A stretch of DNA of 64,000 nucleotides from Octopus sinensis (Eukaryota): NCBI RefSeq assembly GCF_006345805.1, contig NC_043010.1, forward strand, positions 33,976,001-34,040,000, read 5' to 3'. Below, in pieces: positions 3,728-62,583 of the stretch. The notes under the pieces were generated by a model. The model saw only the letters and a list, made by a program, of their open reading frames with translations, searched no databases and was not told the origin of the DNA. Every line of letters starts with the position of its first letter. Positions within the stretch are counted from its first letter, which is position 1. A program made the position numbers and the translations under genes.

Positions 3728-4155
3728 CACACACACATACTCATCTACTATAATAATACTCTTGTGCTTTTCTCCATTACAATATTTGAATGAGAAAGGA
3801 AGGGGTGATAAATGAATAAGGAAGGAAGAGGTGATGGCAAAATGGTGGTGGGAGCATTTCAACTCTGTGAGTATATGTGTGTGTATGTAAAAGGGAGGTA
3901 CGTGAGTATGTGTGTGTGTGTGTATGTGCAATGGATGTGGGATGGTGAAAATCCAATGCTGAAAAATGTGAATATTTGTATGTGTGAACCAGCATTCTCT
4001 CAGTAACAAACAATCATTGATGTCATAGCTAAAAAGACAACCACTTGATAACATTGACAAGTGTATTAATTTGATTTACCATTCACATTTGTATATAAGA
4101 TACTACAATTAGCCATCACTTTTGATGGCACGGAGCCAGCTAGTATGTATATATA

Positions 4156-5040
4156 CATGGTCTGATCAATAAGTATCTGGACTGTTGCTATAGTAACAAA
4201 GCTAAAGCACTGAGAGTGAAGCCTCTTGGCACAGATTGACCTTGAACTCTGCTGTGTGTGTGTACTAAGTTTTAACATTCTAGCTTACTTCTGCTGTTTA
4301 CAGCAGTGCTTGGAAGGAAGGTGTGTAGCATGTGATTGTTGCATTGATCATGACAGAAAAAGTTGAGCAGAGAATCTGCATCAAATTTTATCAAAAACTT
4401 GGCGATACCTGCTCAGAGGCCTATGCAAAGTTTTCAAAAAGTTCTCATTGATCTCAATAACAATCAAGGAAATCTTGTGCAACTGAAACCCGGGTGTCTT
4501 TTTGGTCAGCTGGAAGCAGTTTTGGTATAAACTTGGCAGACACGCATCTCATACCCAAATCTTCAGTGATAATGGACGGTGGTGAATCATAACTAATCTG
4601 CACATCCTGTGATAACTCACTGATGGTGATTTGACAATTCTCCCTCAAAGCTGCATGCACGTCTGCGATATTTTTCACTGGTTGTGGGTCTCCCTGAACA
4701 TTCGTCAAAATCGACGTTTTTCAGCTATCTTGGAAATGTCTGAACCAGTCATACACTTGTGTGCAGTTCATACATTCATCTCCATACTCTTCTTGCAACT
4801 TTATGTAAGCCTCTGAGCAGGTATTGCCATGACAGCTTTGTCATGGTCAATGCAATGATCACATACTACACACCTTCCTTCCAAGCACTGCTGTAAAAAG
4901 CAGAAAAGAGCTAGAATGTTAAAACTTAGTGCACACACACACAGCAGAGTTCAAGGTCAATCTGTACCATGTGGCTTCACTCTGTGTGCTCTAACTTCGT
5001 TATTATGGCAACAGTCCTGATACTTATTGATCAGACCTCA
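4156..5040. mobile_element. Non-autonomous mariner derivative with long inverted arms (two 5' ends)
   Basis: TIRs (CAT/TGA)GGTCTGATCAATAAGTATC flanked by TA; inverted similarity extends ~200 bp inward and resumes after a gap; transposase start MTEKVEQRICIKF on + at 4350 and a longer N-terminal remnant (ITEDLGMRCVSAKFIPKLL) on -. Confidence 0.85.
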
Positions 5041-5259
5041 TATACACACACATACACATACACACATTATAGTGTTTATTCTTCTGTTTGTACTTTTCCC
5101 ACTGCTTTCACACTTTACCATCCAATATTTCAACTTTCATCCCCTTAAGCCCTTCTCCCTTCTCAGTATTATTTCTGTTGAGCCGTTTTTAACTACAGAT
5201 TTCCTCCTCTTCATTGCAAACCAGACCATTGGTCTCTTGTATTTGAGCACTTCTGCAAA

Positions 5260-5478
5260 AGGCGGTGAGCTGGCAGAAACTTTAGCACGTCAGGCAAAAT
5301 GCTTAGCAGTATTTCATCTGTCTTTACTTTCTGAGTTCAAATTCCACCAAGGTCAACTTTGCCTTTCATCCTTTCAGGGTCGATAAATTAAGTACCAGTT
5401 GCGTACTGGCATCAATCTAAGTGACTGCCCCCCCCGCCCCCAAAATGTCAGGCCTTGTGCCTAGAGTAGAAAAGAATA
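5260..5478 (+). mobile_element. SINE family B, near full length
   Basis: GGCGGTGAGCTGGCAGAAAC head, GAGTTCAAATTCC B-box-like motif, shared body and 3' end GGCCTTGTGCCT. Confidence 0.8.
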
Positions 5479-6071: not shown

Positions 6072-6504
6072 AAGGCAGCGAGCTGGCAGAATCTCTAGCA
6101 TGCTGGGTGAAATGCTTAACAGTATTTCATCTGCCATTACATTCTGCATTCATATTTCATCGAGGTTGACCTTGCCTTTCATCCTTTCGGGATCGATAAA
6201 TTAAGTACCAGTGAAACACTGGGGTTGTTGCAATCGACTGCCCCCCCCTCTAAAATTTCAGGCCTTGTGCCTTTAATAGAAAGGATTATTATTATTATTT
6301 TTACAAGTTGGTGAGCTAGCAGAATTGTTAGCTCACCAGGTGAAAAGCTTAGTCTGCTACTACATTCTGAGTTCAAATTCCACCGAGGTCAACTTTGCCT
6401 TTCATCCTTTTGGGCTTGATTAAATAAGTACCAATTATGCACTGGGGTCAATGTAATCGATTTAATCCCTTCCTCCAAATTTGAGGCTTTATGCTTCCAG
6501 TATA

Positions 6505-7774: not shown

Positions 7775-8071
7775 TCAAGTCATCCCATAAGTAATGTCCA
7801 AATTTTGGGTAAGAAAAAAAAGTGATCTAATTTTACATTTTATTTAAATGAAGTCCTCTTTTACTTGTTTCAGTCATTTGACTGCGGCCATGCTGGAGCA
7901 CCGCCTTTAGTCAAGCAAATCGACCCCGGGACTTATTCTTTGTAAGCCCAGTACTTATTCTATCGGTCCCTTTTGCTGAACTGCTAAGTGACGGGGATGT
8001 AAACACACCAGCATCGGTTGTCAAGCAATGCTAGGGAGACAAACACAGACACACATACATATATATATATG

Positions 8072-8132
<61 letters not shown>

Positions 8133-9518
8133 ATATATATATAATATATATATATATATATGTATATACATATATACGACAGGCTTCTTTCAGTTTCCGT
8201 CTACCAAATCCACTCACAAGGCATTGGTCGGCCCAGGGCTATAGCAGAAGACACTTGCCCAAGATGCCACGCAGTGGGACTGAACCGGGAACCATGTGGT
8301 TGGTAAGCAAGCTACTTACCACACAGCCACTCCTGCGCCTATGTCCTGTATATAATTCCCATCATTATTGATGACTTCCTTCCATCTACTCATCAGTTTT
8401 TAAATTCTATTGGTGAGAAACTTTTCTGGTTTTGATGAGAAGAAGGAAGAGAGGTCAGTTTTAACCACTTTGGAGATTTTGAGTACTAATCCATCTAAAT
8501 GATTTTCTAAGCATTGAAACGAATAGTAATCAGAATGAGTGAGGTCCAGTTGATATGATGTGTGAGGGATTTTTCCCAGCCAAGTTCCATGATGTTTTCT
8601 GATGTACTTTTTGCAGTGTAAAGCCTTGCATTATCATGATGAAACACCACTTCCTTACGATTCATCAAAGCAGTCCTTTTTTAAAATCAAAGCATCATCC
8701 AAACACTCTAATTGTTGGAAATAAGTTTGAACAGTAATTATTTTTTTTAGTTGGTGGATCACTCCGATGCAATCTCACCAAACAGAAAGAACATTTTTTG
8801 TTTGGATGCCCCTTTTGGGTTGTGGTTTAACGTGTTCCCCATTGCCTACATCACTTAACATTTACAAAAAAAAGTCCATTTTTCATTACCTGTCACTAAT
8901 CTGTTCAAAAACGGTGAGATACATTCAAAAGAGTGAAGAGACGAGCAAATGTTCACGTGTGATTTTCGGATGGCATCTGTCAAATCATGGGACCCATTTT
9001 CCAAGTTTGGTTACCTTTCCAAGCTGTAGAAGATGGCGGTGAATAGTTGAATGGCTTGAATTGAGCTTGCTTGACAATTCTTTAACTGACACAGCATTAT
9101 CCTTTTCAATCTCTGACAAATGAAGCTAATGATAAAATTAAACAGGGTGTCCTGTTTGTGACCTCTCTCTTCAGCTGAAATCACCATTTATGAACTTTGC
9201 AAACAATCTTCTGCAACTTCAAGCACTCTTACTCACAAACAGAATGGATATTTTGAGTTGCTTCTGCTGCACTGTTTCCCTTTTTGAACTCACAAAGCAT
9301 GACTGTGCCTTAAATACTCCTTCGATACACCCATCTTTGAGGGGTTAATGTTAGTAATTATTTCAGTAAGATTATTTTGTAAAAAGAAGTTATATTAAGT
9401 TAAAGATTTTAAAATTCATATGAGTCTCAATTAATACCATTTGACCTTTTAGAATACTGTAAAATTTGATAGAAATTACATATATGATATTTCAGACATT
9501 ATTTATGGTATGGCCTGA
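7775..9518 (-). mobile_element. Full-length degenerate mariner element, interrupted by a SINE
   Basis: Imperfect 24-bp TIRs TCAAGTCATCCCATAAGTAATGTC / TCAGGCCATACCATAAATAATGTC (reverse complement); minus-strand motifs KLGKWVPHDL, RLVTGNE, FHHDNAR, ELGWE; ATG at 9334; ~1.26 kb once the SINE is removed. Confidence 0.85.
7858..8342 (-). mobile_element. Full-length SINE family A with internal (TA)n, inserted in the mariner
   Basis: tRNA-like head at 8342 to ~8275, internal (TA)n ~8055-8175, tail ending AAATGACTGAAACAAGTAAAAG; GTCCT on both flanks (7853-7857, 8343-8347) is a possible TSD. Confidence 0.85.
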
Positions 9519-9626: not shown

Positions 9627-10757
9627 ATATACACACACACATATATATACATGTACACACACATACACATATACATACATATATACACATACACACATAC
9701 ATATATATATATATATACACATATACATATATATATGTATATATATGTATATGTATATGTGTATAATATATATATATATGTATGTGTGTAGGTGTGTATA
9801 TATGTAGGTATATGTGTATGTGTGTGTACATGTATATATATGTGTGTGTGTATATATATATATGTTTATATGTGAGTATGTAGAGATATAAGTATATGCA
9901 TGTATATGTGTGTGTGTGTTATAATATAATCTTATATATATATGTATGTATATATATGTGTATTGGGTTTTGGTGTTTATCTGTATATATATATATATGT
10001 GTGTATGTGTATGTGTATATATGTGTGTGTGTGTATATATATATATATGTATATTGTATGTGTATGTGTGTGTGTGTATATATGTGTATATTATATATAT
10101 ATATATATGTATGTATGTGTATGTGTATGTGTGTGTATGTGTGCATGTATGTGTATGTGTATATGTGTATATATATGTATGTATATGTATATATGTGTAT
10201 GTGTGTGTATATATATATGTATATATGAGTGCGCGTGTGTGTATGTATGCATATATGTATGTATGCATGTATATGTGTATGTATATATGTGTGGAAGTGT
10301 GTGCATATATGTATATGTAAGTATGTGCGCGTGTATGAGTATGTATGTATGCTTGCACACGTGTATATATATGTGTGCGTGTGTATATATATGGATGCGC
10401 GTGCGTGCGTGCACGTGTATGGGTACGCATGTGTATATGTGTATGTGCGTGTATGTGTATGTATGCATATATGTATGTATGCATGTATATGTGTATGTAT
10501 ATATGTGTGTAAGTGTGTGCATATATGTATATGTAAGTATGTGTGCGTGTATGAGTATGTATGTATGCTTGCACACGTGTGTATATATGTGTGTGTGTAT
10601 ACATATGGATGCATGTGCGTGTGGGCACGTGTATGGGTACGCATGTAATATGTGTATGTGCGTGTATGCGTATACGGTATGTATGTATGTATGTGTGGGC
10701 GTATATTTGTATATGTATGTGTGAGTGTGTATATATATATATATATTATATATATAT

Positions 10758-10800
<43 letters not shown>

Positions 10801-11185
10801 ATATATATAATATTATATAGATGGGGGTGTGTGTATGCGTATAAGTGCATGTAAGTATGGATGTATGTATGTATGTTTACGTATGTATGTGTTTGTGTGT
10901 ATATGTATGTAGGTGTGTGTATGTATGTGTGTATATATGTATATGTATATATATATGTGTGTGTATATATGTTTGTGTATGTATATATATGTGTATGTAT
11001 GTGTGTGTATTATATATGGGTGTGTGTGTATGTATGTATGTATATATGTATATATTGTGTATATATATATATTATGTATGTATATGTATATATATATATA
11101 TGTACATGTATGGTGGGTATATATATATATATATATATAGGTATGTATCTGTATGTAGGAGTATATATATGTGTGTGTGTGTGTA

Positions 11186-11235
<50 letters not shown>

Positions 11236-11265
11236 TATGTATATTTATTGGTGTATATATATAGA
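9627..11265. repeat. Compound (TA)/(TG)/(CA) microsatellite field with internal inverted and ~218-bp direct duplications
   Basis: Almost pure purine-pyrimidine alternation; inverted copy 9627-9855; direct units ~10231-10432 and ~10447-10646. Confidence 0.9.
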
Positions 11266-11439
11266 CTAGCCTCCTAAAGTGTAGATGAATCTGTAGGTAC
11301 GAGTACGTATGTGTATATACGTGAACGTATGTAGATGTTTGTATGTATGGATATAACGCGTGCGTACGTGTATGTGTATGAGTGTACGAATGGGTGTATG
11401 TACGTGCTAATGAGTGTGCGTGCGGGAACGAGTACTTGC

Positions 11440-11491
11440 CTTCTAGTAGACAGACAATTTGGACATGCTGCCATCGCCAGGATCCTTAGCT
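11440..11491 (-). other. Candidate 52-nt exon of an unidentified minus-strand transcript
   Basis: Pyrimidine tract + TAG acceptor, GCGATGG start context (MAACPNCLSTR), AAG|GCAAGT GC-type donor; no partner exon confirmed. Confidence 0.3.
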
Positions 11492-11565
11492 CTAGCGATC
11501 AAAGATAACAAAAGTAATAAATGAAGATAATAAAATTAAAATTAGGGAATGGGCCTGTATTGGAT

Positions 11566-11616
<51 letters not shown>

Positions 11617-11732
11617 ATATATATATGTATATATATGTATGTGTATGTGTGTATGTGTAGGTATGTATAGGCACACATGTGTACGTATGTGTGTGTGTAT
11701 GTATATGTGTTTATGTATGTATGTGCACACAT

Positions 11733-11769
<37 letters not shown>

Positions 11770-11944
11770 ATTTTTTATTTTTTATTTTTTTATTTATCTA
11801 TTCTTTCACCTAACTTACCACTGACTCCTTGACCACTCCCCCAAGTATGATATTTTGCGCTATGCCTACCCCCAAAAAAGTCCCCCACCACCACTCCTTT
11901 AAACCTGCCTAAATGTATAAATGCTAATACAATTCTTGTTAAAT

Positions 11945-11995
11945 AGCTTCCTGAAGATTTCTCTTGAATGAAACAGTACTAGTCCTGTAGAAGCT
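11945..11995 (+). ncRNA. Type I hammerhead ribozyme motif (possibly degenerate)
   Basis: AGCUUC-CUGAAGA-U-UUC(UCUU)GAA-U-GAAA-CAG(UACUAGUC)CUG-UA-GAAGCU: helix I 6 bp, both core boxes, helix II 3 bp, helix III, GUA cleavage triplet. Confidence 0.75.
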
Positions 11996-12006
11996 CCTTC
12001 TATATA

Positions 12007-12045
<39 letters not shown>

Positions 12046-12705
12046 CACACACACCACACATTAATCAATGAAATTCCAACTTGGTCTGATTTTTATGTTT
12101 TATTATTTGCAGGTATACTTTCAGATTGAGGTGGACAGTGGGAGTGGGGGGAGTGATTGTTTACTACTTGGAGTATTAGTGGTGGTAATGGTAGCAGTAT
12201 TTGAATAGGATGACAATAATGATAATGGACCTCTTGTGTCATTCTGAGAAGAATTTGAGTGGCCTGACTGTGGAGAAGAGCTAGGGACTGTTTTGTTTAA
12301 AGGGTCATTAATTGTTCTAGTATTGACTTCCAGTGCTCATCTTGTTGTTGTTACTACTGTTTAATTGTGATAAGGGTAGTAGCAGTAGAACATAATGAAA
12401 ATGATGATCATAGGTCACTTGTAGTATTCCAAGGAAATAAGGAAGTGAATATCCAAACTGTGAAGGACTCTTGATTGTGGAGTTTAACAGTTCATCAATT
12501 GTGCTGGTATTGAGGAGTGGCCATGGTTATTGTTTATATATATATATATATATATATATATGTAAATGTAAAAAAATACAAACTGGGACAAGAACGTGAA
12601 ACATTTAGAAGACGATACAAAAAACACGGACGGGACATTCGAAGCCTCCAATCTTCAGTCAAGAACCGGATCATCTTCGCAATTTCGGCTGATTAATCTT
12701 GATAA

Positions 12706-12751
<46 letters not shown>

Positions 12752-15662: not shown

Positions 15663-15727
15663 ATGTCGCGCTACTCTCGGCCTCCAAACACTTCCCTCTA
15701 TGTACGAAATGTTCCCGAAGGAACGAG
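15663..15727 (+). CDS. SRSF10: SR splicing factor SRSF10/12-like, coding exon 1
   Basis: MSRYSRPPNTSLYVRNVPEGT(R), matching the SRSF10 N-terminus (MSRYLRPPNTSLFVRNV); GAG|GTGAGT donor, phase 2. Confidence 0.95.
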
Positions 15728-26151: not shown

Positions 26152-28739
<2,588 letters not shown>

Positions 28740-29419: not shown

Positions 29420-29552
29420 CACCATCACAAATGAGAAACAAAGAAAAAATGAGACGCAGTTCATTATCACCATATCGTAGTCGTTACTATGATGATTATT
29501 ATGACAGACGAGGCAGCAGACGAGGTTACAGATCAAGAAGTAGGAGTCCAAG
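29420..29552 (+). CDS. SRSF10: SRSF10-like coding exon 4
   Basis: TPSQMRNKEKMRRSSLSPYRSRYYDDYYDRRGSRRGYRSRSRSP; the KTPxQM motif is typical of SRSF10; TAG / GTAAGT boundaries. Confidence 0.95.
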
Positions 29553-29719
29553 GTAAGTGAACTTAAAATGATAAAAAATGCCAACTATGGGAGGGAGAGG
29601 GTATATTTTTGTCAGGACTGCTGTGCGGTATGTGAGGTTGAGGAAGTGTTTGAAACTTTTAATTGGAATTTGTGTGTGTGTGGGCCATTCTCTAATCTAC
29701 CCTTAATTTCTTCTTACAG

Positions 29720-29761
29720 ATCTCGTTCAAGGAGCCCTAATGGTGGCAGCACTAGGAAAAG
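29720..29761 (+). CDS. SRSF10: SRSF10-like coding exon 5 (42 nt, RS)
   Basis: RSRSRSPNGGSTRK; CAG / GTAGGT boundaries, phase 2-2. Confidence 0.9.
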
Positions 29762-30253
29762 GTAGGTATTGTAAGAATTTACTTATGAAGCAAAATGACT
29801 GAAGTTAACAAATTGTTTACTGATCTCATTGTCAACAGTTTAGATTATTACTCATGTCATGGTTTCTGTGCAAGCCGTTTCATAAATAATGATGATGATA
29901 ATAATCTGCTCCTACTTAGGATTCATAATCTTGGTCATATGAATAAACTATCCTAGCATGGAAAATGTAAAATAGTAAAAAGATGGTAATCAGTTTCTTT
30001 TTCAACGAGGGATTGGTGGTGGTGATAATGGTGTAAAGTTATTTGCTTATCAAAAAACTGACAGCTAGAGTTGAAGCTACTTCTGTGTATGAGATATGGG
30101 TTCTTCAAAGTAACTTTCTATTTCATGCAAGATTTGAATGAATAAATATATTTTTATGTATTGGCTGGTGAATTATCTTAATGTAGTTGGTGATAATGCT
30201 TCTCACTTCTAAATTTACTGAATTATTCTGCTTAAAATATTTTGTTTTTGTAG

Positions 30254-30289
30254 TCGACGTAGTCGAAGCAGATCTCCACGCAGACATAG
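30254..30289 (+). CDS. SRSF10: SRSF10-like coding exon 6 (36 nt, RS)
   Basis: SRRSRSRSPRRH; TAG / GTAGGT boundaries, phase 2-2. Confidence 0.9.
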
Positions 30290-31142
30290 GTAGGTTGTAA
30301 TTTTATTCCTTTGGTCCTTTAGACCACTGTAATAAATGCATTACTGTAATTAGCTCCTACCACTTTTGGGGTTGTGGTCAACCTATTCTCTTAGGTCATT
30401 TGGTTATCTCTAGGGAAGAAACCAGCTAAGTATATGACAAACATGTAATTTTAACCCTTTAATTACTCTATTTTTAGCCAAAAATACTGTTCCTCTTTGA
30501 ATTAAGCTACATAATTAAGCTAATTAATATTAAAATAATGGTTTAAATATGTAAAAGAAAAAAATCTGAAATTTTCAGCCTCGAAATTATCAAGTAGGAT
30601 CTAAAATATGGAGTTATTTAAAATTTTGTTTAAATATCATCGTTATTAACCAATATTAGAATAACGGTAAAACCGTTCAGTTGAATTTGATTTCTGTTCC
30701 TCTTTTTTCCTTTTAAATTTTTTGTAATTACAAGGTACACTTGAATTGGAATAGCAGTAAATAGTAAATGGGTTTTGATTTATGAGAACGATTAATTGGG
30801 TCTATATTATTTTGAATATTTTAATTGCTGTATTTGAAAATCAACTTTGGTCACTTTATTGAATTTAGAGTTTATTAATTTAAAGCATTCAACGCTGTAA
30901 TAGTGAAGGCTAGATTGGTTAGAATACGGAAAACAATTGACAACCTAAAATTTTTGTAAAAATATTGCTCAGTGTACAATAAAGTAAGATTTATGGTTGA
31001 TGGTTTGATTTAAATATGAATAGGAAAATGTGAATGTCCTCAGGTACCCTAGCAATAGGTGGGTTGGTAAATCTAACAGTAGTAAAAGTTTACCATTTAA
31101 AACAAAGCTTTCTGATTGCTCTCATTGTTTCCTTTATTGTAG

Positions 31143-31247
31143 GTCTTACAGTCGTTCTCGCAGCAGATCAAGGTCTTATGATCGCAGAAGAAGCAGCCCA
31201 TCTCCACGTAGGTCTGTATCTGGCGACCAGAAGGACCACACACTCAG
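31143..31247 (+). CDS. SRSF10: SRSF10-like coding exon 7 (RS)
   Basis: RSYSRSRSRSRSYDRRRSSPSPRRSVSGDQKDHTL; TAG / GTACTA boundaries; an in-phase alternative donor exists at 31212. Confidence 0.85.
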
Positions 31248-31360
31248 GTACTAACATAAACTGATCACAAATTCTTTCGTTGTGTGTCATGACAGTTCAT
31301 TGAAAGTTTCCTTTCTTTGTGCATTTAAGATTTAACTACTGTATCTTTTTCTCTTTCCAG

Positions 31361-31451
31361 GTCTCGGTCATACAGCAGGTCTTCGTCCCAGTCAGGGGGT
31401 AAAGATGGCTCTGGACAGGATGACCAGAAGGCAGATAGCCCTCAAGACTAG
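31361..31451 (+). CDS. SRSF10: SRSF10-like terminal coding exon 8
   Basis: RSRSYSRSSSQSGGKDGSGQDDQKADSPQD*; strong CTCTTTCCAG acceptor; total CDS 681 nt = 226 aa + stop. Confidence 0.9.
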
Positions 31452-33755: not shown

Positions 33756-34884
33756 ATCACACAACACATACTCTTACCTTAATCTCTACCTGTCCATATA
33801 CCTCCTGAGTGTCCTTCAATTATTTCTATTCCCCCTACAGTCGTGTCTATTCTGTTACTCTATGCTTTACGCCTGCTCCTATTCTTCAATTACAGGGGTC
33901 ATGAAAAATAGTACTCCGTATATATTTGAAAACTGGTTGCATTAGGAAGGGTATCTAATTGCAGACATTAGTGCACAGTGCAGTTCTCTGATTTATTGGA
34001 TGCTGTCAAATGTAACAACCATTGCCAGTATGGAAGATGGATGTTAAAATTGGTGATAACTTAGAAATTGAAACGTCGTTACATTTAATGCATTTTTTTC
34101 ATTTGCTGCAAATTAAAATCATTCATAATTACCATTATAAAACCTGAAGTTTATTTTTCACAGAAAAGGAAAACTTTGTTTTTACCTAGTGGACTTGCAT
34201 AACTTTTTTTTAAGCACTATGTCCAGAATGTAGGACATAGGTGATGTCCTGCCACAATTCTCTCTTTACTTTGTCATAATTCCACCTCCTGATGTTTAAT
34301 GCTTCTTTTCCAACCAGTTTGCCAAGCTTGACAACCATATCACCCTTCTGCTTCTTTTCCCTTCAATCTTTTCAAATATATATATACAGGGTGCTGCTTA
34401 TCACTAAATTCTCCTGGCCACCTTACCTCATCTAACGACCAAGATATCTCAGTTGTTTGGCCCTTATCTCAACAAACCAATTGCCTATTTACTACAGCCT
34501 GGGTCATCTTCATTAGACACTTTGGCCATGTTACTCTCAGTATTTTCCTTAAGAACCACAATTCACAGCTCTTCAAGAACCTCAGGTAGATTGAACTGCT
34601 GTGTCTGTCTGCATTATATCACTACTAGTCTAGGATTGAGATAGATGTTGGTCTTTTGATTTAAATGTGATATTTCTTGAGTTGGTGACCAAAGAAGGGA
34701 TTTAAAATATTTAATAACTGACTGGGCTAGCTTTTTTGGTTAAAGGTTTGTCACCTTAGGGTTCTAAATTTGATCATATCCTCAGTATCAGTGCAAAACT
34801 GTCCCACTAATACAGAACCCCTAAAACCTGGGCAGTGAAAGATTATCAAATATGTTAATGCATTGAAACTTGGTTGCAGTATAC

Positions 34885-35238
34885 TTTTACTTGTTTGCCA
34901 TTTGACTGACCATGCTGGAGTACCGCCTTTAGTTGAACAAATCGACCCCAGTTCTTATTCTTTGTAAGCCTAATACTTATTCTATTGGTCTCCTTTGTCG
35001 AACTGCTAAGTTTCGGGGATGTGAACACATCAACATCAGTTATCAAACAGTGGTGGAGAGACACACACACAAACATATATGACGGGCTTCTTTCAGTTTC
35101 TGTCTTCAAAATCCACTCATGGCTTAGGCCAGCCCTAGGTTTTAGAAGACACTGGCCTAAGGTGCCATGCAGTGGGACTGAAACTGGAACCATGTGGTTG
35201 GAAAGCAAGTTTTTTATCACACAGTCACACCTGCACCT
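34885..35238 (-). mobile_element. SINE family A, full length
   Basis: Colinear with 7858-8342, with a short internal (CA)/(TA) tract. Confidence 0.85.
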
Positions 35239-35487
35239 GATTTTTTTTCCTAACTATTTCTGAGTAGCCATGATTTAGTATTTCTAAATGTTACAAATCT
35301 GCAATATTCCAATATTTGGTAATTGCTTGATATTTTCAATAAAACCAATAGTTCTGAAATTCCCACTTAGGGCTGCTTAACTCTTCAGCACTCAGATTAC
35401 TCTGTCAAATCTAATGCATCACAATTGTTTTGAATTGATCATGCATATCTCAGCTTCACAATTTTGATGATGTGGCTTTTCTATTCT

Positions 35488-36400
35488 TTCTTTTACTTCT
35501 TTCAGTCATTTGACTGGCCATGCTGGAGCACCACCTTCAGTCGAACAAATCGACCCTAGGACTTATTCTTTGTAAACCTAGTATTGTTTCTATCAATCTT
35601 TTTGCGGACGTAAACATACCAACATCGGTTGTCAAGTGATGGTGGTTGGGACAAACAAACACACAAATATATATATATACACAGGCATACTTTGGCTTAA
35701 GTCATTCTCGATTATACGTCGGCTTTCAAAAATAATATATGGAAAATTAGAAATCAAATTAGGTTGTTTTATTCAACTTTATGTCTGTCCGCCACAAACA
35801 TTGGAATCATAAAAGCACATAAAGCCATATTACTGTCAGAATAAAAGCATATAAAATCATATTAATATGCATAGTAAAGTAGTATAGTTTAGTGAACAAA
35901 ATCATGAAATCACCAAATTGTATGTATGTTGGTAAATTTAATATTTTTTTTTTTTTTACTGTTGCGAAATAATAATTATTGAATTTGTTTTTTAAGCTTA
36001 AAAAATGCTTTTATTTTACCATGTCTTATTGCAAACCACATTCATATATAAAGCATCTGCAATGTACGGTAAAAACCACCAAATTGTATTCGTAAATTTA
36101 GATTACTTTTTTTTACTGTATTTTTAGCTTAAAATAGGTTTTTATTAACCATAAAGTACAGAACTGGAAATGGTTATCAGTTTAGCCTAGAGACAAGTTA
36201 ATTTGACTTGTCGTGTCTCCAGGAACCAATTAACAACATAGGGTGAAGTATGCCTGTATATATATATATACAACGGGCTTCTTTCAGTTTCCATCTACCA
36301 AATCCACTCACAAGGACACTTGTGCAAGGTGCCACGCAGTGGGACTGAACCCAGAACCATGTGGTTGGTAAGCAAGCTACTTACCACACAGCAATGCCTG
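35488..36400 (-). mobile_element. SINE family A split at its internal (TA)n by a pogo/Tigger-like MITE
   Basis: Tail part ~35488-35680 and head part ~36257-36400 are colinear with 7858-8342. Confidence 0.8.
35682..36256. mobile_element. pogo/Tigger-like non-autonomous element
   Basis: TIRs CAGGCATACTT.. / ..AAGTATGCCTG inserted in a TA run; AT-rich interior with an internal degenerate duplication; no ORF. Confidence 0.7.
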
Positions 36401-36665
36401 TTTTTCAAAAGATATTGTAGAGCAGGTCTGAGAGGCCAGATCTGGTTGATTTGAACATAAAACAGGTAGAATATTCGGCTGGTTTAAATGCAAAAGGGTT
36501 AACACTAGTTCTTACATCAACAATTGACAATTTCACATTTCTCTGAATCGGCCATAAATTGTATTAATTTGTCCTTTTGTTTCTTAATTGTTGAAGAACT
36601 TGTTATTTCACGTACAATGATGTTTCTTCTTCCTCTTTTAATGTCCACTTTTTCATGGGTCTGAT

Positions 36666-38234: not shown

Positions 38235-38645
38235 CATTATGGCAGTTCTTTAGTTGAATAAACCGACCCCAGGCTTAGCTTTCTTTTAAAGCCTGATACT
38301 TACTTCATTGGTCCTTTTTGCTGAACTGCTAAGCCACAGGGATATAAACACACCAACACCTGTTCTCAAACACATACATAATATATACACAGTAGGCTTC
38401 TTTCGGTTTCCATTACCAAATCCACTTACAAGGCTTTGGTCGACCCAAAGCTATAGTAGAAGACACCCAAGGTGCCACACAGTGGGGCTGAACTCAGAAC
38501 CATGTGGTTGGGAAGTAAACTTCTTACTACACAACCACCTCTGTGCCTTTACGATAGGTTTCTTTCAGTTTCCACACAGTGGGACTGAACTCGAGTCTAC
38601 ATGGATGGGAAGCAAGCTTCTTAAACCACACAGCCACATCTGCAC
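38235..38645 (-). mobile_element. SINE family A copy plus a duplicated head fragment
   Basis: Colinear with family A; second short head at ~38550-38645. Confidence 0.7.
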
Positions 38646-38919
38646 CTCAGGCTTACAATGTTAGAATTACCTGCTTTCTTTTCACACTTTCTCTTAACTG
38701 GTTACTCTTGTTAACATTGGAAAACCTTTTTACTAACAAGTGTGCAAAATATAAATAAAGTTTGAGATGAAATAGATGCTGGTCACTAGGAATGACAGCG
38801 TTTAGCAGGGAACAAATCTGACCATTAGGTTTACTGGATTAACAGAGCTTGACTGTATTAACTCTTTTGATACTAATCTGTCTTAGACAACACCTAGTTC
38901 TACCATGCCAACATCCTGC

Positions 38920-41865: not shown

Positions 41866-42020
41866 GATGGACTTCCAGTTTCTGTTTACCAAATCCACTC
41901 AGAAGGCTTTGGTCTGCCTGGGGCTATAGTAGAAGGCACTTTCCCAAGGTGCAATGCAGTGGAACTGAACCAGGAACCATGTGGCCAGGAAGCAAGCTTC
42001 TTAACACACAGCTATGCCTG
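41862..42020 (-). mobile_element. SINE family A head half followed by (TA)n
   Basis: Colinear with the family A head. Confidence 0.75.
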
Positions 42021-45000
42021 CGTCTTTGTGTATATATGTACCAAAAGATATTAAAAACAGCCAAGAGCCATGATTATTATAAGTATTTTTTTTTGTTGGT
42101 GCTAGTGAGTAACTTAGTTTCAAAATGTTGGATGGTGGAGATGATGTCCCACAGCTGTTAGAATAGTGAAACTACATAGAACACAAAGGCAGTTTGGTTA
42201 TTTCACATCTGAAAATAAGGTGGAATTAATCAAAACAATTCCAAGAATGTTCAACCACAATCTTTATTGATGAGAGGAGGATAGAAAGAGAGAGAGAGAA
42301 AAATGATTATAGACATGAGATGTTTGACAATAAACAAATGTGGACTACTTTAAAGACTGGTTGGTTGTGACAAAAAGTCACCAAGAATGAAGGATGTAAT
42401 GGGGAGGAGGTGGAGTGGGAGTGATCGGCTTTGTATCACATGACTAACTTCAGCGTTAGTCACAGCAAGGAGGTTATTTGTTTATCCCTCTCAGAACTGA
42501 CTTGGATGAAGGAGATGGAACCATTGTCAGGAATTTCAATAGAATGGATTTGTTCCCAAGTAATATGTATATATATATGTTTAACAAAAAAAAAAAAAAA
42601 AAAATTCTTGTGTTGATTTTAAAGTGTTGGCAAGAACTTGTGAACTCCATGATAGTTCTTTTTTATCTTCTTTTTTTCATTTAATTGTTCCCCACCCAGT
42701 TCTTTAAATAAAGACCTCCTCCTCCCCAATGTTGCTTCTGCTTCATGGAAGTAGAAGACTTGAAACAACTGAGCAAATCTTCAGGACACATTTATCTGGC
42801 TGTTCCGTCAGTGACTCAAAATGGGAAGAGAAAGAAAGATAGAGATAGACAGAGAGATAGGATTCGATGAAAGATAATAATAATAATGATAATATATATT
42901 TATTTATATATACATATTTATTTATTATATGAATTAGGCAACATCATTCCTGGCATTGAACAAAGAGTTTGGTCATGTTTATACCAAGCAGAAGGCTAAG
43001 CTTCGTTTATGATACATAATGAATGGGGGGAGGGGGCCATCCACGCACAAAGTGAACTTAATTCTCAGAGTAAAACATCTAAAAACCTGTAATGTTACAG
43101 TAATAAATAAGGTAATAATTGTTGTTCACTAGAAATTAAAGTAAATTAATTGTAAAGTTTCATGAATCTTCTATGAGGATAGAAAAGGTAAAAATATTCA
43201 ACTTAAACTATGAATAAAATATATGAATTTATTTACAGCACTGATGAGATGAATATTTTTCTTAAAGAAAACCAAACTGGCTTAAACCAGAAAGATTCGG
43301 AGAGTAATTTACATATATATATATCCAACTCCAGAGTTGATGTAAAATAATTTTGAGTTTAAATCTCTTAAGTGACCATCTATAGATAAGACAATCCATA
43401 AAATATGATTTGGAACTTGTGTCATACTGTCTATGTGTTCTCTGGTTAAGACTGTATATTATCCATTATATTGATAACCATCTAATTATATAGACAGATG
43501 AAATAAAAAAAAAATCCTTTTAATGGCTATATATAGCATAATCTGAATATACATGCAGTTCTTAGTTGGGCTCGGCTAACCAACTGATGCTGGATTAAAT
43601 TACGCTTCCTTTCTGATGATCTGGTGTTATAACGTATTTATGCAATTGTCTTTGTAATAATTACCACATGGTATACTAGCACATGCTAGTGAAACACATG
43701 TAAACATTATGTAATTTATGATGTTTATAACATTAAAAAAAAATATTAAACCAAATCTCCACTTTTATTCTGCTCGTGTATGTATTATTTAGAACCGGTA
43801 TTTATATGGTCACGAAGAATTGACCAATACACACTATGTGAATGATGAATAATTATGTAAATTATGGGCTGGACTGCAGAATTGATAGAACAGATATAGG
43901 TATTACATTATATTTGGAGATTAAATCCTGCTCATGTTTATTTTGTTTATCAACCTTCTGTGGTCACTAAAAAAATTAGCACTAAGAAGATGTTGATGTA
44001 ATCAACTACATCTCAGAAGATAGTGCCTCAGGATGGTTATAGTCGAATGACAGAAGCCAGTGGAAAGGGAGAAAGCGTTAATTTTGTTATTGTTCTAAAA
44101 AGGCATGCTATAATTAATACCTCTGATTCACATACAAGCTTCCCTATACAACTTGTGAAATTTATTGACAATTAAATCTATGAAAACTTTTGAAAGAGCA
44201 GGCTTCAATAGTTCAAGTGTAAAAGCAAATACTTGATAGCTTTTAAAATTTTTTTCTTTGAAGTGAGTCAAGCTATATTCGACGGATCTTTTTTTTTTTT
44301 TTTTATAGATTTCTAAAGGAAGAGGAAAGAGGTGAGGATTAATTGTTGCCATGGTGGTGATATTTGAACATGTGATGGGACTAGGAAGTAGGAATAGACA
44401 GCACCGCCAAAATCTTTTTTTACAGAATTTCTCAATCAGTCGAACAACAAAATGAAGATAAGTCAAAATAAAATAAAATAAAATAAATAAGAGAAATGAA
44501 CACAAAATATCATTAATTCCCAGGTTTTTTTCCATTTTCTTTTTTTTGTTTTTTTATATATAGACATTTATATAATTTCAAATTTTTCTTCTTCCTTTCA
44601 ACATTATTTGCAAGAGATCACTCTCTCTTTTTCAATTTTCGTTTTCTCTTAATATTACAAAATACAAATAAATAATATTTTTGTTGTTTGTTTGTTGTGT
44701 TTTCTTTTTTTGAAATAAATGTAGTTGTTGAATGGCTGAAGAGAACAGATAGATGCTTCACAGAGAAGGAGGAGTAAGGGAGAAGAGAAGTGTGGGACAC
44801 CTCGACAATAGAAACCAGCAATACAGACAAAATAGTGTACAAGAAATGGTCAGAGTAGATGGGGACGGGTGGGTAGGGGGAATGAAGAGAGTAACATACA
44901 ACTTGGGAGGTCAATGTCTATGGAGAGAAAGAATAGCAAATGAGAACCCTTCTGTTTTGAGTTAGATTTATAAGAGAGGTAGGTAGGTGGTGAGAAGAAT

Positions 45001-62142: not shown

Positions 62143-62583
62143 TTAACCCGTTAGCATTTAAACTGGCCAGATCTGGCCTATCACACCTACCCTACAACGT
62201 CATAAAAAAAATTAACAGTTGCCTCATCAAAATCTCATAGCTACAAGATACTTTTTTACTTGTTTCAGTCCTTTGACTGCGGCCATGCTGGAGCACCGCC
62301 TTTAGTTGAACAAATCAACCCCAGGACTTTGGGGGAACAAACACAGACACACAACGGGCTTCTTCCAGTTTCCATCTACCAAATCCACTCACAAGGCTTT
62401 GGTCGGCTGAGGCAATTAGAAGACACTTGCCCAAGGAATCATGCAGTGGGACTGAACCCGGAACCATGTGGTTGGTAAGCAAGCTACTTACAACACAGTT
62501 ACTCCTGCACATGATTAATTCAAATCAATGTGAATAAAAAAAGCATTACTTTTGATAGAACAATGTGAATGCTAAAGGGTTAA
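62143..62583. mobile_element. TTAA-MITE interrupted by a family A SINE (~62253-62510, minus strand)
   Basis: TTAA-CCCGTTAGCATT ... AATGCTAAAGGG-TTAA termini; SINE body in between. Confidence 0.8.

What the first reader, a model, noticed from the sequence alone, without database searches (positions are those of the whole stretch)
11945..11995. Hammerhead ribozyme motif in a Penelope/retrozyme-like terminal module
Seen: complete type I topology. Helix I is AGCUUC/GAAGCU, followed by CUGAAGA, helix II UUC/GAA with a UCUU loop, GAAA, helix III ACAG/CUGU and a GUA triplet (predicted cut after 11989). Loop 3 contains the palindrome ACUAGU; TATAAA lies at 11916-11921 and AATAAA at 12006-12011. Established: small type I hammerheads, often with palindromic loop 3 that allows dimeric folding, occur in Penelope-like element repeats and retrozymes of metazoans. 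Caveat: the pair closing helix II is U-U rather than the usual G-C, so this copy may be weak or dead. Inference: a footprint of a self-cleaving retroelement family, 3.7 kb upstream of SRSF10.
Basis: partly seen in the sequence, partly recalled or inferred. Interest (0 to 1): 0.8.

Follow-up and report, generated by a model that had tools for sequence, protein, structure and literature searches.

The report
Penelope retrotransposon led by a hammerhead
This is the end of one of thousands of near-identical copies of a Penelope-like jumping gene; its hammerhead ribozyme likely forms the first 51 letters of the element's capped RNA, which would explain why about 40% of copies begin exactly there.

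Summary
The type I hammerhead is there as described. It marks the 3' repeat of a 5'-truncated copy (9627-12012) of a young Hydra-clade Penelope-like retrotransposon. The genome holds 3,548 exact ends, and ORF-bearing copies carry the ribozyme at both ends and encode a telomerase-like RT plus a GIY-YIG-type nuclease. The U•U pair is not decay: it is unchanged in 173-183 family instances and is the commonest closure in published Hydra hammerheads (14 of 25). Features beyond the published clade: a 3-kb microsatellite-like 3' UTR; 1,489 of 3,762 matches begin at the ribozyme's first base, 29 nt after TATAAA, often with an extra G (likely the cap); head-to-head insertions pair one tailed with one untailed end (27 of 27 loci); and two 248- and 422-nt retrozyme-like arrays are deletion derivatives of the family. 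Cleavage was not tested, and junctions show no excess at the predicted cut. Closeness to the SRSF10-like gene is expected by chance.

The parts
9627..9716 (-). short fold-back arm at the 5' truncation: inverted copy of 9766-9856 of the element's own 3' UTR
   Evidence: inverted repeat I25, 92%; sequences compared
9704..11790 (+). distal part of the element's microsatellite-like (TA/TG-rich) 3' UTR, carried with the element
   Evidence: aligns at 89-92.5% over about 2.3 kb to L031, L036, L043, L058; 95% to L003; about 61% of 9627-12040 lies in dinucleotide runs; no ORF remnant in the window by tblastn
11790..11944 (+). pseudo-LTR part upstream of the inferred start site (promoter region)
   Evidence: repeated at both ends of L068, L070, L073, L074, L076
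11916..11921 (+). TATAAA, 29 nt upstream of 11945; likely TATA box (inferred)
   Evidence: nearly invariant; CATAAA at the same spacing in diverged subfamily copy L250
11945..11945 (+). inferred transcription start (+1), also the first base of hammerhead helix I
   Evidence: 1,489 of 3,762 matches have a non-native base before it; extra G in 11 of 15 direct (TA)n junctions; 29 of 100 arms end within 44-49 nt upstream of the cut, 0 at 50-89
11945..11995 (+). type I hammerhead: 6-bp helix I, U•U plus 3-bp helix II, 4-bp helix III with 8-nt partly palindromic loop; predicted cut after 11989
   Evidence: recurrent family variants only at N7, loop 2 and loop 3
11986..12004 (+). predicted competing 8-bp hairpin covering the cut site and the 3' strand of helix I
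   Evidence: helix I pair probability falls from 0.72-1.0 (51 nt) to 0.02 (+1..+141 of tailed copy L001)
12006..12012 (+). AATAAA and the untailed 3' end (+68), one of the family's two 3' ends; the other (+141) includes a 74-nt tail absent here
12013..12040 (.). (TA)n target microsatellite
   Evidence: all 30 loci run into TA-rich or (TA)n sequence at the element end

Best explanation
The motif lies in the 3' pseudo-LTR of a 5'-truncated, ORF-less copy of a young Hydra-clade Penelope-like retrotransposon, and it is likely the first 51 nt of the element's capped mRNA and a likely functional but normally held-off ribozyme. Shown: family structure (pLTR-hammerhead-tail-ORF-3-kb UTR-pLTR-hammerhead), (TA)n targeting, two 3' ends (+68, +141), the 5' wall at +1 with a frequent extra G, and selection-like conservation of core and stems. 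Inferred: TATAAA drives Pol II from 11945. The RT-endonuclease cuts both strands of (TA)n and primes two cDNAs on uncleaved RNA, one from +141 and one from +68. Priming in the 5' leader runs off at the cap and gives 70-210-bp mini-insertions, often two hammerheads head to head. Priming in the 3' repeat gives long copies such as this one, which spread microsatellite-like DNA. Predicted: a downstream hairpin keeps the monomer mostly off, and cleavage occurs as a dimer or with protein help in tandem transcripts, releasing unit circles that would be copied into retrozyme-like arrays.
For: Family and linkage. Hydra motifs RWR, DKT, CxCx5C, CxxC-E-N-CxH (against section 11 of PMC8557442); RT closest to telomerase. 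Selection: 5 of 5 genuine recurrent hammerhead variants fall in the 13 free positions of 45 (p about 0.001). Start site. G never occurs at -1 in 108 instances that extend upstream, and at most 3 of 36 internal junctions show an extra G. An extra G marks the cap in full-length L1 insertions (PMC11702581 passage). Twin priming: 25 of 25 simple two-strand loci, plus 2 compound loci, carry one tailed and one untailed end. This matches two RT start sites, extension of both strands and use of uncleaved RNA shown in vitro for the anole element (PMC11167929 parts 1-2). Arrays: L230, L231.
Against: No cleavage, cap or transcript was observed; no listed run is on record as RNA and only contigs could be laid. 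48 of the first 100 '+1' rows are perfect palindromes pivoting on AGCT, which microhomology alone could favour. A sister Hydra family shows no extra G at its ribozyme edge, and two others lack a TATA at -29. The active fold has a probability of only 0.024 as a monomer. No unbroken full-length ORF was seen in 20 copies or among the best hits. About 14 of the roughly 38 non-array tail-to-ORF loci extend more than 100 nt upstream of +1, which a simple capped linear template does not give.
Confidence: 0.72

Rival explanations
1. Same element, but the wall at 11945 is not a transcription start. RT stalls after unwinding helix I, the self-complementary AGCT end lets two cDNAs anneal, and the extra G comes from terminal transferase activity.
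For: 24 perfect AGCT palindromes in the first 100 rows; some G's could be templated by the inverted arm (CAGG|AGCT); no cap-like G in the sister family.
Against: 11 direct (TA)n junctions have a single G that neither target nor element supplies. Other palindromes (CTAG in loop 3, TTTAAA at -46) are rarely used as pivots. TATAAA sits at -29 before a T|A initiator. No arm ends 50-89 nt upstream of the cut.
Confidence: 0.17
2. The ribozyme cleaves efficiently in vivo, and ligated unit-length circles are the main RT template (model of Cervera and de la Pena), which yields the partial tandems.
For: Seamless 248- and 422-nt arrays; many ORF-bearing copies extend past +1; rare variants are sometimes shared by all arms of a locus (L070, L146); a few junctions lie at the cut (L066, L078, L085, L087).
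Against: Junctions are not enriched at the cut: 11 arms at 11988-90 among 18 loci against 7 at the control TA 11980-81 among 36 loci. A circle has no cap or +1 end, yet 40% of matches start there.
Confidence: 0.08
3. One reading: a lone retrozyme-like or decayed hammerhead with a mutated helix II, possibly acting on the neighbouring SR-protein gene.
For: U•U closure, weak predicted fold, no Rfam match; same strand as the gene, 3.7 kb upstream.
Against: 211 bp are 100% identical at 7 other loci; U•U is fixed in the family and typical of the clade; the copy is continuous with the autonomous element's 3' UTR; 3,548 ends make such proximity common.
Confidence: 0.03

Closest known systems
Hydra clade of Penelope-like elements, incl. 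Hydra-1_Obim (Craig et al. 2021, PMC8557442)
   Same: C-terminal endonuclease, RW[K/R], DKT, CxCx5C linker, CxxC and CxH around E and N, (TA)n target, canonical hammerhead, often with U•U closure; helix III ACAG/CUGU-A as in Penelope-1_NV, Penelope-1_SK and Hydra-1_aMil.
   Different: Unit 5.4-5.8 kb against 1.1-3.0 kb listed; 3.0-3.3-kb 3' UTR with about 60% (TA/TG)n; 8-nt loop 3 against 1-3 nt; 74-nt tail against 30-40 bp described for PLEs. Protein and hammerhead differ from Hydra-1_Obim by eye, so it is another family.
Poseidon element PAc of Anolis (Frangieh et al. 2024, PMC11167929)
   Same: Two RT start sites that define the optional tail, both strands extended, AT-rich target, hammerhead not needed for insertion.
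   Different: In PAc the starts lie 111-118 nt inside the ORF and the ribozyme overlaps the AUG. Here both ends (+68, +141) and the ribozyme lie upstream of the AUG (+184), and genomic copies show one start per strand.
Metazoan non-LTR retrozymes (Cervera and de la Pena 2020, PMC7229834; Li et al. 2026, bioRxiv 10.64898/2026.07.22.740005)
   Same: Tandem 150-450-nt units with a type I hammerhead; derivation from PLE pLTRs proposed. Arrays L230 (248 nt) and L231 (422 nt) fit this.
   Different: The window copy is not a tandem monomer. The arrays are direct deletion derivatives of a living autonomous family, head to head, with that family's tailed or untailed ends (L230 and L231 each have one of each).
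LINE-1 full-length and twin-primed insertions (PMC11702581)
   Same: Extra G at full-length 5' junctions; inverted insertions from priming on both strands.
   Different: L1 primes at poly(A) on one RNA. Here both primers start at fixed internal sites, and the 'full-length' 5' end is reached after only 68-141 nt.

Membership tests
Type I hammerhead ribozyme | CUGANGA/GAAA/UH core with three helices, open at helix I | tested here: met
Type I hammerhead ribozyme | G10.1-C11.1 pair closing helix II | tested here: not met
   U•U in window and family; U•U in 14 of 25 Hydra families and in a cleaving axolotl hammerhead, so it is an accepted natural variant
Type I hammerhead ribozyme | conservation or covariation across copies | tested here: inconclusive
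   core and stems free of recurrent change, loops and N7 vary; no compensatory pairs within the family; different stems around the same core in sister families and in L266
Type I hammerhead ribozyme | match to an Rfam hammerhead model | tested here: not met
Type I hammerhead ribozyme | self-cleavage | not testable with these tools
   needs an in vitro assay
Penelope-like elements (EN+) | single ORF with telomerase-like RT | tested here: met
   model of L059 ORF, pLDDT 91.8; best Foldseek hit TERT 3du5 (E 2.9e-9); VIA-align top three are telomerases (Z 15.1-16.6); no relevant Pfam hit
Penelope-like elements (EN+) | C-terminal GIY-YIG endonuclease | tested here: inconclusive
   invariant Y30, Y45, G47, E115, N128; best fold hit T4 EndoII, prob 0.95 but E 0.055; EndoII as a GIY-YIG enzyme is recalled; aligns by eye with Hydra EN rows
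Penelope-like elements (EN+) | pseudo-LTRs with hammerhead, partial tandems, inverted 5' copies, optional tail | tested here: met
Hydra clade | RWK and DKT motifs; CxCx5C linker; CxxC and CxH flanking E and N | tested here: met
   RIRWRS, PSDKTK, CNCPDKTTC, CDLCISE..LLN..CMH; RWK appears as RWR
Hydra clade | (TA)n insertion preference | tested here: met
Hydra clade | generally short (<3 kb); descriptive, not diagnostic | tested here: not met
   5.4-5.8 kb between hammerheads in L058, L074, L076; older subfamily copy L250 has a 545-nt UTR
Hydra clade | placement in an RT phylogeny with named references | not tested
   published reference proteins were compared by eye only
Non-LTR retrozyme | short tandem non-coding monomers each with a type I hammerhead | tested here: not met
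   window copy is a single 2.4-kb truncated PLE end; met by family arrays L230 and L231
Non-LTR retrozyme | expressed circular RNA | not testable with these tools
   only contigs available

The most novel reading that the evidence does not exclude
The pseudo-LTR works like a true LTR. RT starts inside the 5' leader (+68 and +141, one per target strand) and makes a strong-stop cDNA that ends at the cap on the ribozyme's first base. This cDNA either integrates as a two-hammerhead mini-palindrome or transfers to the 3' repeat and continues, which would build the partial tandems typical of Penelope elements. Deletion derivatives then become hammerhead-cut circles, so this family shows retrozymes being born, while its 3-kb UTR seeds microsatellite DNA across the genome.
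Probability: 0.3. Interest if true: 0.85.

Novelty: new variant of a known kind. Interest (0 to 1): 0.6.

Why it matters
How Penelope-like elements make their tails, inverted ends and tandems, and what their hammerheads do, is still open (PMC8557442 passages; PMC11167929). This family is young and has thousands of copies, so its junctions record the reaction in vivo: a fixed 5' end on the ribozyme's first base, a strict one-tailed/one-untailed rule, and arrays traceable to the parent element. Each gives a cheap, exact test (5' RACE at one base, cleavage of three short RNAs, RT-PCR for 248-nt circles). It also offers a source for the solo and head-to-head hammerhead pairs reported in animal genomes (PMC4209133) and for part of this genome's TA/TG-rich DNA. 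The motif in the window is itself ordinary: one of thousands.

Tried and rejected
Rfam: no hammerhead. Folding z-score: uninformative. Pfam and PDB sequence searches of the ORF, homologs and sister families: no relevant hit. Cleavage footprint: 25 matches with a non-A base before the cut were mostly point changes or helix I fold-backs, with about 5 clean ends; the TA-junction test showed no excess over the control, so it was rejected. Replication of the cap-like G in the 727-aa sister family: not seen in the first 100 of 268 rows. Neptune clade, my first guess: rejected on RT and EN motifs. DNA-transposon terminal inverted repeats, suggested by the inverted pairs: rejected because the arms are 5'-truncated retrocopies with unequal ends. 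Arm-length chaining was unreliable in microsatellite DNA and is not used. The marker-haplotype table was offset by one base and is not used, so strand transfer between subfamilies was not tested. Luense et al. on dimeric PLE hammerheads is not held and was seen only through a review. Earlier findings of this scan: none.

Full report
1. Observation. A hammerhead descriptor finds one site in the window, and no equally strict site in 150 shuffles. Folding energy alone does not single it out (z -0.26), and Rfam does not detect it.

2. It is a repeat end. The 211 bp around it gave 2,065 first-look candidates in the 2.72-Gb genome G000. The 40 scored were near-identical, 8 of them identical including the window itself. 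The 23 nt after the predicted cut occur exactly 3,548 times. Upstream, the window aligns at 89-92.5% over about 2.3 kb to other loci, so the TA/TG-rich DNA travels with the element. The window copy runs from 9627 to 12012, has a short fold-back at its 5' end, no ORF remnant, and ends in (TA)n.

3. The parent element. Among 20 loci chosen for the RT start, L074, L068, L070 and L073 show pLTR, hammerhead, 74-nt tail, ORF, long UTR, pLTR, hammerhead; L058 and L076 show the same on the other strand. Ribozyme-to-ribozyme length is 5.4-5.8 kb in L058, L074 and L076. Stop-to-ribozyme is 3.0-3.3 kb in 5 copies, 57-61% in (TA/TG)n runs, but 545 nt in the diverged copy L250. The tail-to-ORF junction occurs 55 times. 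The ORF is about 710 aa by overlap of copies; none of the copies read had it unbroken. Its model is closest to telomerase RT. The C-terminal domain is weakly closest to T4 EndoII and keeps Y, YxG, E and N. Motifs match the Hydra clade as defined in PMC8557442 section 11 (alignment). By eye it is not Hydra-1_Obim. 839 homologs were found among 8,000 scored candidates, and at least four sister families lie in this genome; three of them show hammerhead-like motifs next to the ORF.

4. The U•U pair. In 209 instances from 127 loci, U10.1 and U11.1 show no substitution (173 and 183 covered). Recurrent changes (3 or more) fall at N7, three loop-2 sites and one loop-3 site. Two further columns (C3, U4; 4 cases each) are inversion junctions and were set aside. 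Five of five in 13 free positions of 45 has p about 0.001. Part of the sample was selected on the 3' 23-mer, so that strand was excluded. There are no compensatory stem changes. In File S2 of PMC8557442, U•U closes helix II in 14 of 25 Hydra families, G-C in 7 (my count). An axolotl hammerhead with this mismatch cleaved 22% as monomer and better as dimer. An unrelated 476-nt array in L266 also has it. Predicted: the active fold is rare (0.024), an 8-bp hairpin at 11986-12004 competes, and the helix III region dimerises at -15.2 (this subfamily) or -12.8 kcal/mol.

5. A wall at the ribozyme's first base. I fetched the loci of the first 100 exact matches on contig C1, a sample taken by position (69 loci). 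29 arms end 44-49 nt upstream of the cut (17 at exactly 11945), none at 50-89, 53 at 90 or more, and 18 inside the ribozyme. In 31 of 69 loci every matched arm is that short. Genome-wide, 1,489 of 3,762 matches have a non-native base before 11945. In the first 100 rows: G 37, C 8, A 55, of which 48 form perfect AGCT palindromes. Among 48 loci in the first 100 of 329 rows joining (TA)n near this site, 11 read (TA)n-G-AGCTTCC, 4 lack the G, and 3 extend further upstream (my count). At internal sites at most 3 of 36 loci show an extra G. G is never native at -1 (0 of 108). TATAAA lies at -29. An extra G marks the cap in full-length L1 insertions. I infer a capped transcript starting at 11945. One contig of another organism joins +62 back to +1 with a G between (table 5c), and L179 shows repeated short G-led restarts. 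Against: the palindrome bias, and no such G in a sister family.

6. Two ends, one per strand. 3' ends fall at +68 or +141, also in runs of other organisms. All 25 simple two-strand loci have one of each, and the 2 compound loci agree. This is the in vivo pattern expected from the two RT start sites and two-strand extension shown for the anole element.

7. No cleavage footprint. Direct junctions near the cut (18 loci; 11 arms at 11988-90, where TA microhomology blurs the site) are not more frequent than in the control window (36 loci; 7 at the control TA) and far fewer than at +1. RT therefore mostly copies uncleaved RNA, as reported in vitro.

8. Retrozyme-like arrays. L230 holds a 248-nt unit (-33 to +218), seven copies facing five; L231 holds a 422-nt unit (-132 to +292). 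Both are deletion derivatives that keep TATA, ribozyme and tail. Seamless repeats fit rolling-circle copying of a cleaved and ligated RNA, or repeated end-to-start jumps; the DNA cannot separate these. About 14 of the roughly 38 non-array tail-to-ORF loci extend more than 100 nt upstream of +1 and 8 end at +2 to +14 (my count), which also needs read-through, circles or jumps.

9. Mechanism. Shown: sections 2-4 (anatomy, conservation) and the junction counts in 5-8. Inferred: Pol II start at +1, cap copying, paired priming. Predicted: hairpin hold-off, dimeric or protein-assisted cleavage, circles. The strand-transfer reading is the bold case (0.3).

10. Literature seen. PMC4209133: parts 1-2 of 4. 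PMC8557442: abstract, passages, section 11, and from the supplement the File S1 Hydra sheet, File S2 and cut alignment rows. PMC11167929: parts 1-2 of 4. bioRxiv 2026.07.22.740005: part 1 and passages; supplement not seen. PMC3846280, PMC7229834, PMC11702581, PMC13282606, PMC6765202: passages. Nine searches listed no paper describing this family, a cap-derived G in Penelope elements, or a start site at the ribozyme's first base. Subscription papers, Repbase or Dfam entries and the repeat library of PMC13282606 were not seen and may hold the family. Promoters in pLTRs, tails, inverted copies, hammerheads in Hydra elements and a PLE origin of retrozymes are all already published.

11. Verdict. 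Observation confirmed, interpretation supported and refined. The window motif is one ordinary end of a known kind of element. The family is a new variant whose junctions make an open mechanistic question testable. Interest 0.6.

Noticed in passing
window 15663-15727, 26230-26400, 29440-31400 (+): SR-protein gene (SRSF10/12-like by recall): first exon, RRM exon with RGFAY, and RS-rich exons.
   Followed up: partly
window 8430-9290 (-): Broken mariner-like transposase fragments (VTGNEKW, FHHDNAR, DYYSF-type motifs; family assignment recalled).
   Followed up: no
window 12561-12712 (-): 152-bp repeat between (TA)n runs with a CUGAAGA...GAAU near-core; 76-86% matches in L016, L093, L100, L185, L198, L277. 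Possibly the end of another microsatellite-targeting element.
   Followed up: partly
window 7856-8344, 34878-36409, 38466-38647, 41872-42029, 62251-62516: Dispersed SINE-like repeat families D12-D15, D19, D20.
   Followed up: no
window 4146-5050; 2162-2282 with 5258-5378 and 6072-6191: Inverted repeats of 103-121 nt at 79-91%; possibly MITE-like.
   Followed up: no
L266:1590-4780 (G000:C3 near 152.80 Mb): Unrelated 476-nt retrozyme-like array, head to head (3 + 4 hammerheads), with a U•U type I hammerhead, inserted in the (TA)n at the end of a 717-aa Hydra family copy; parent element not found.
   Followed up: partly
L278, L267, L269, L273: Four sister Hydra families with long open ORFs (727, 717, 842, 899 aa). 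Hammerhead variants: A•A closure with 2-bp helix II; CCGAAGA core; long helix II; none found for the 899-aa family.
   Followed up: partly
L066 (G000:C2 near 87.79 Mb): Tandem deletion variant of about 2.1 kb whose unit joins the endonuclease region to the base after the predicted cut, with 2-nt microhomology.
   Followed up: partly
L037:1002-3823: Long CR1-like LINE ORF (636 + 267 aa; family recalled) next to an inverted copy of this element.
   Followed up: no
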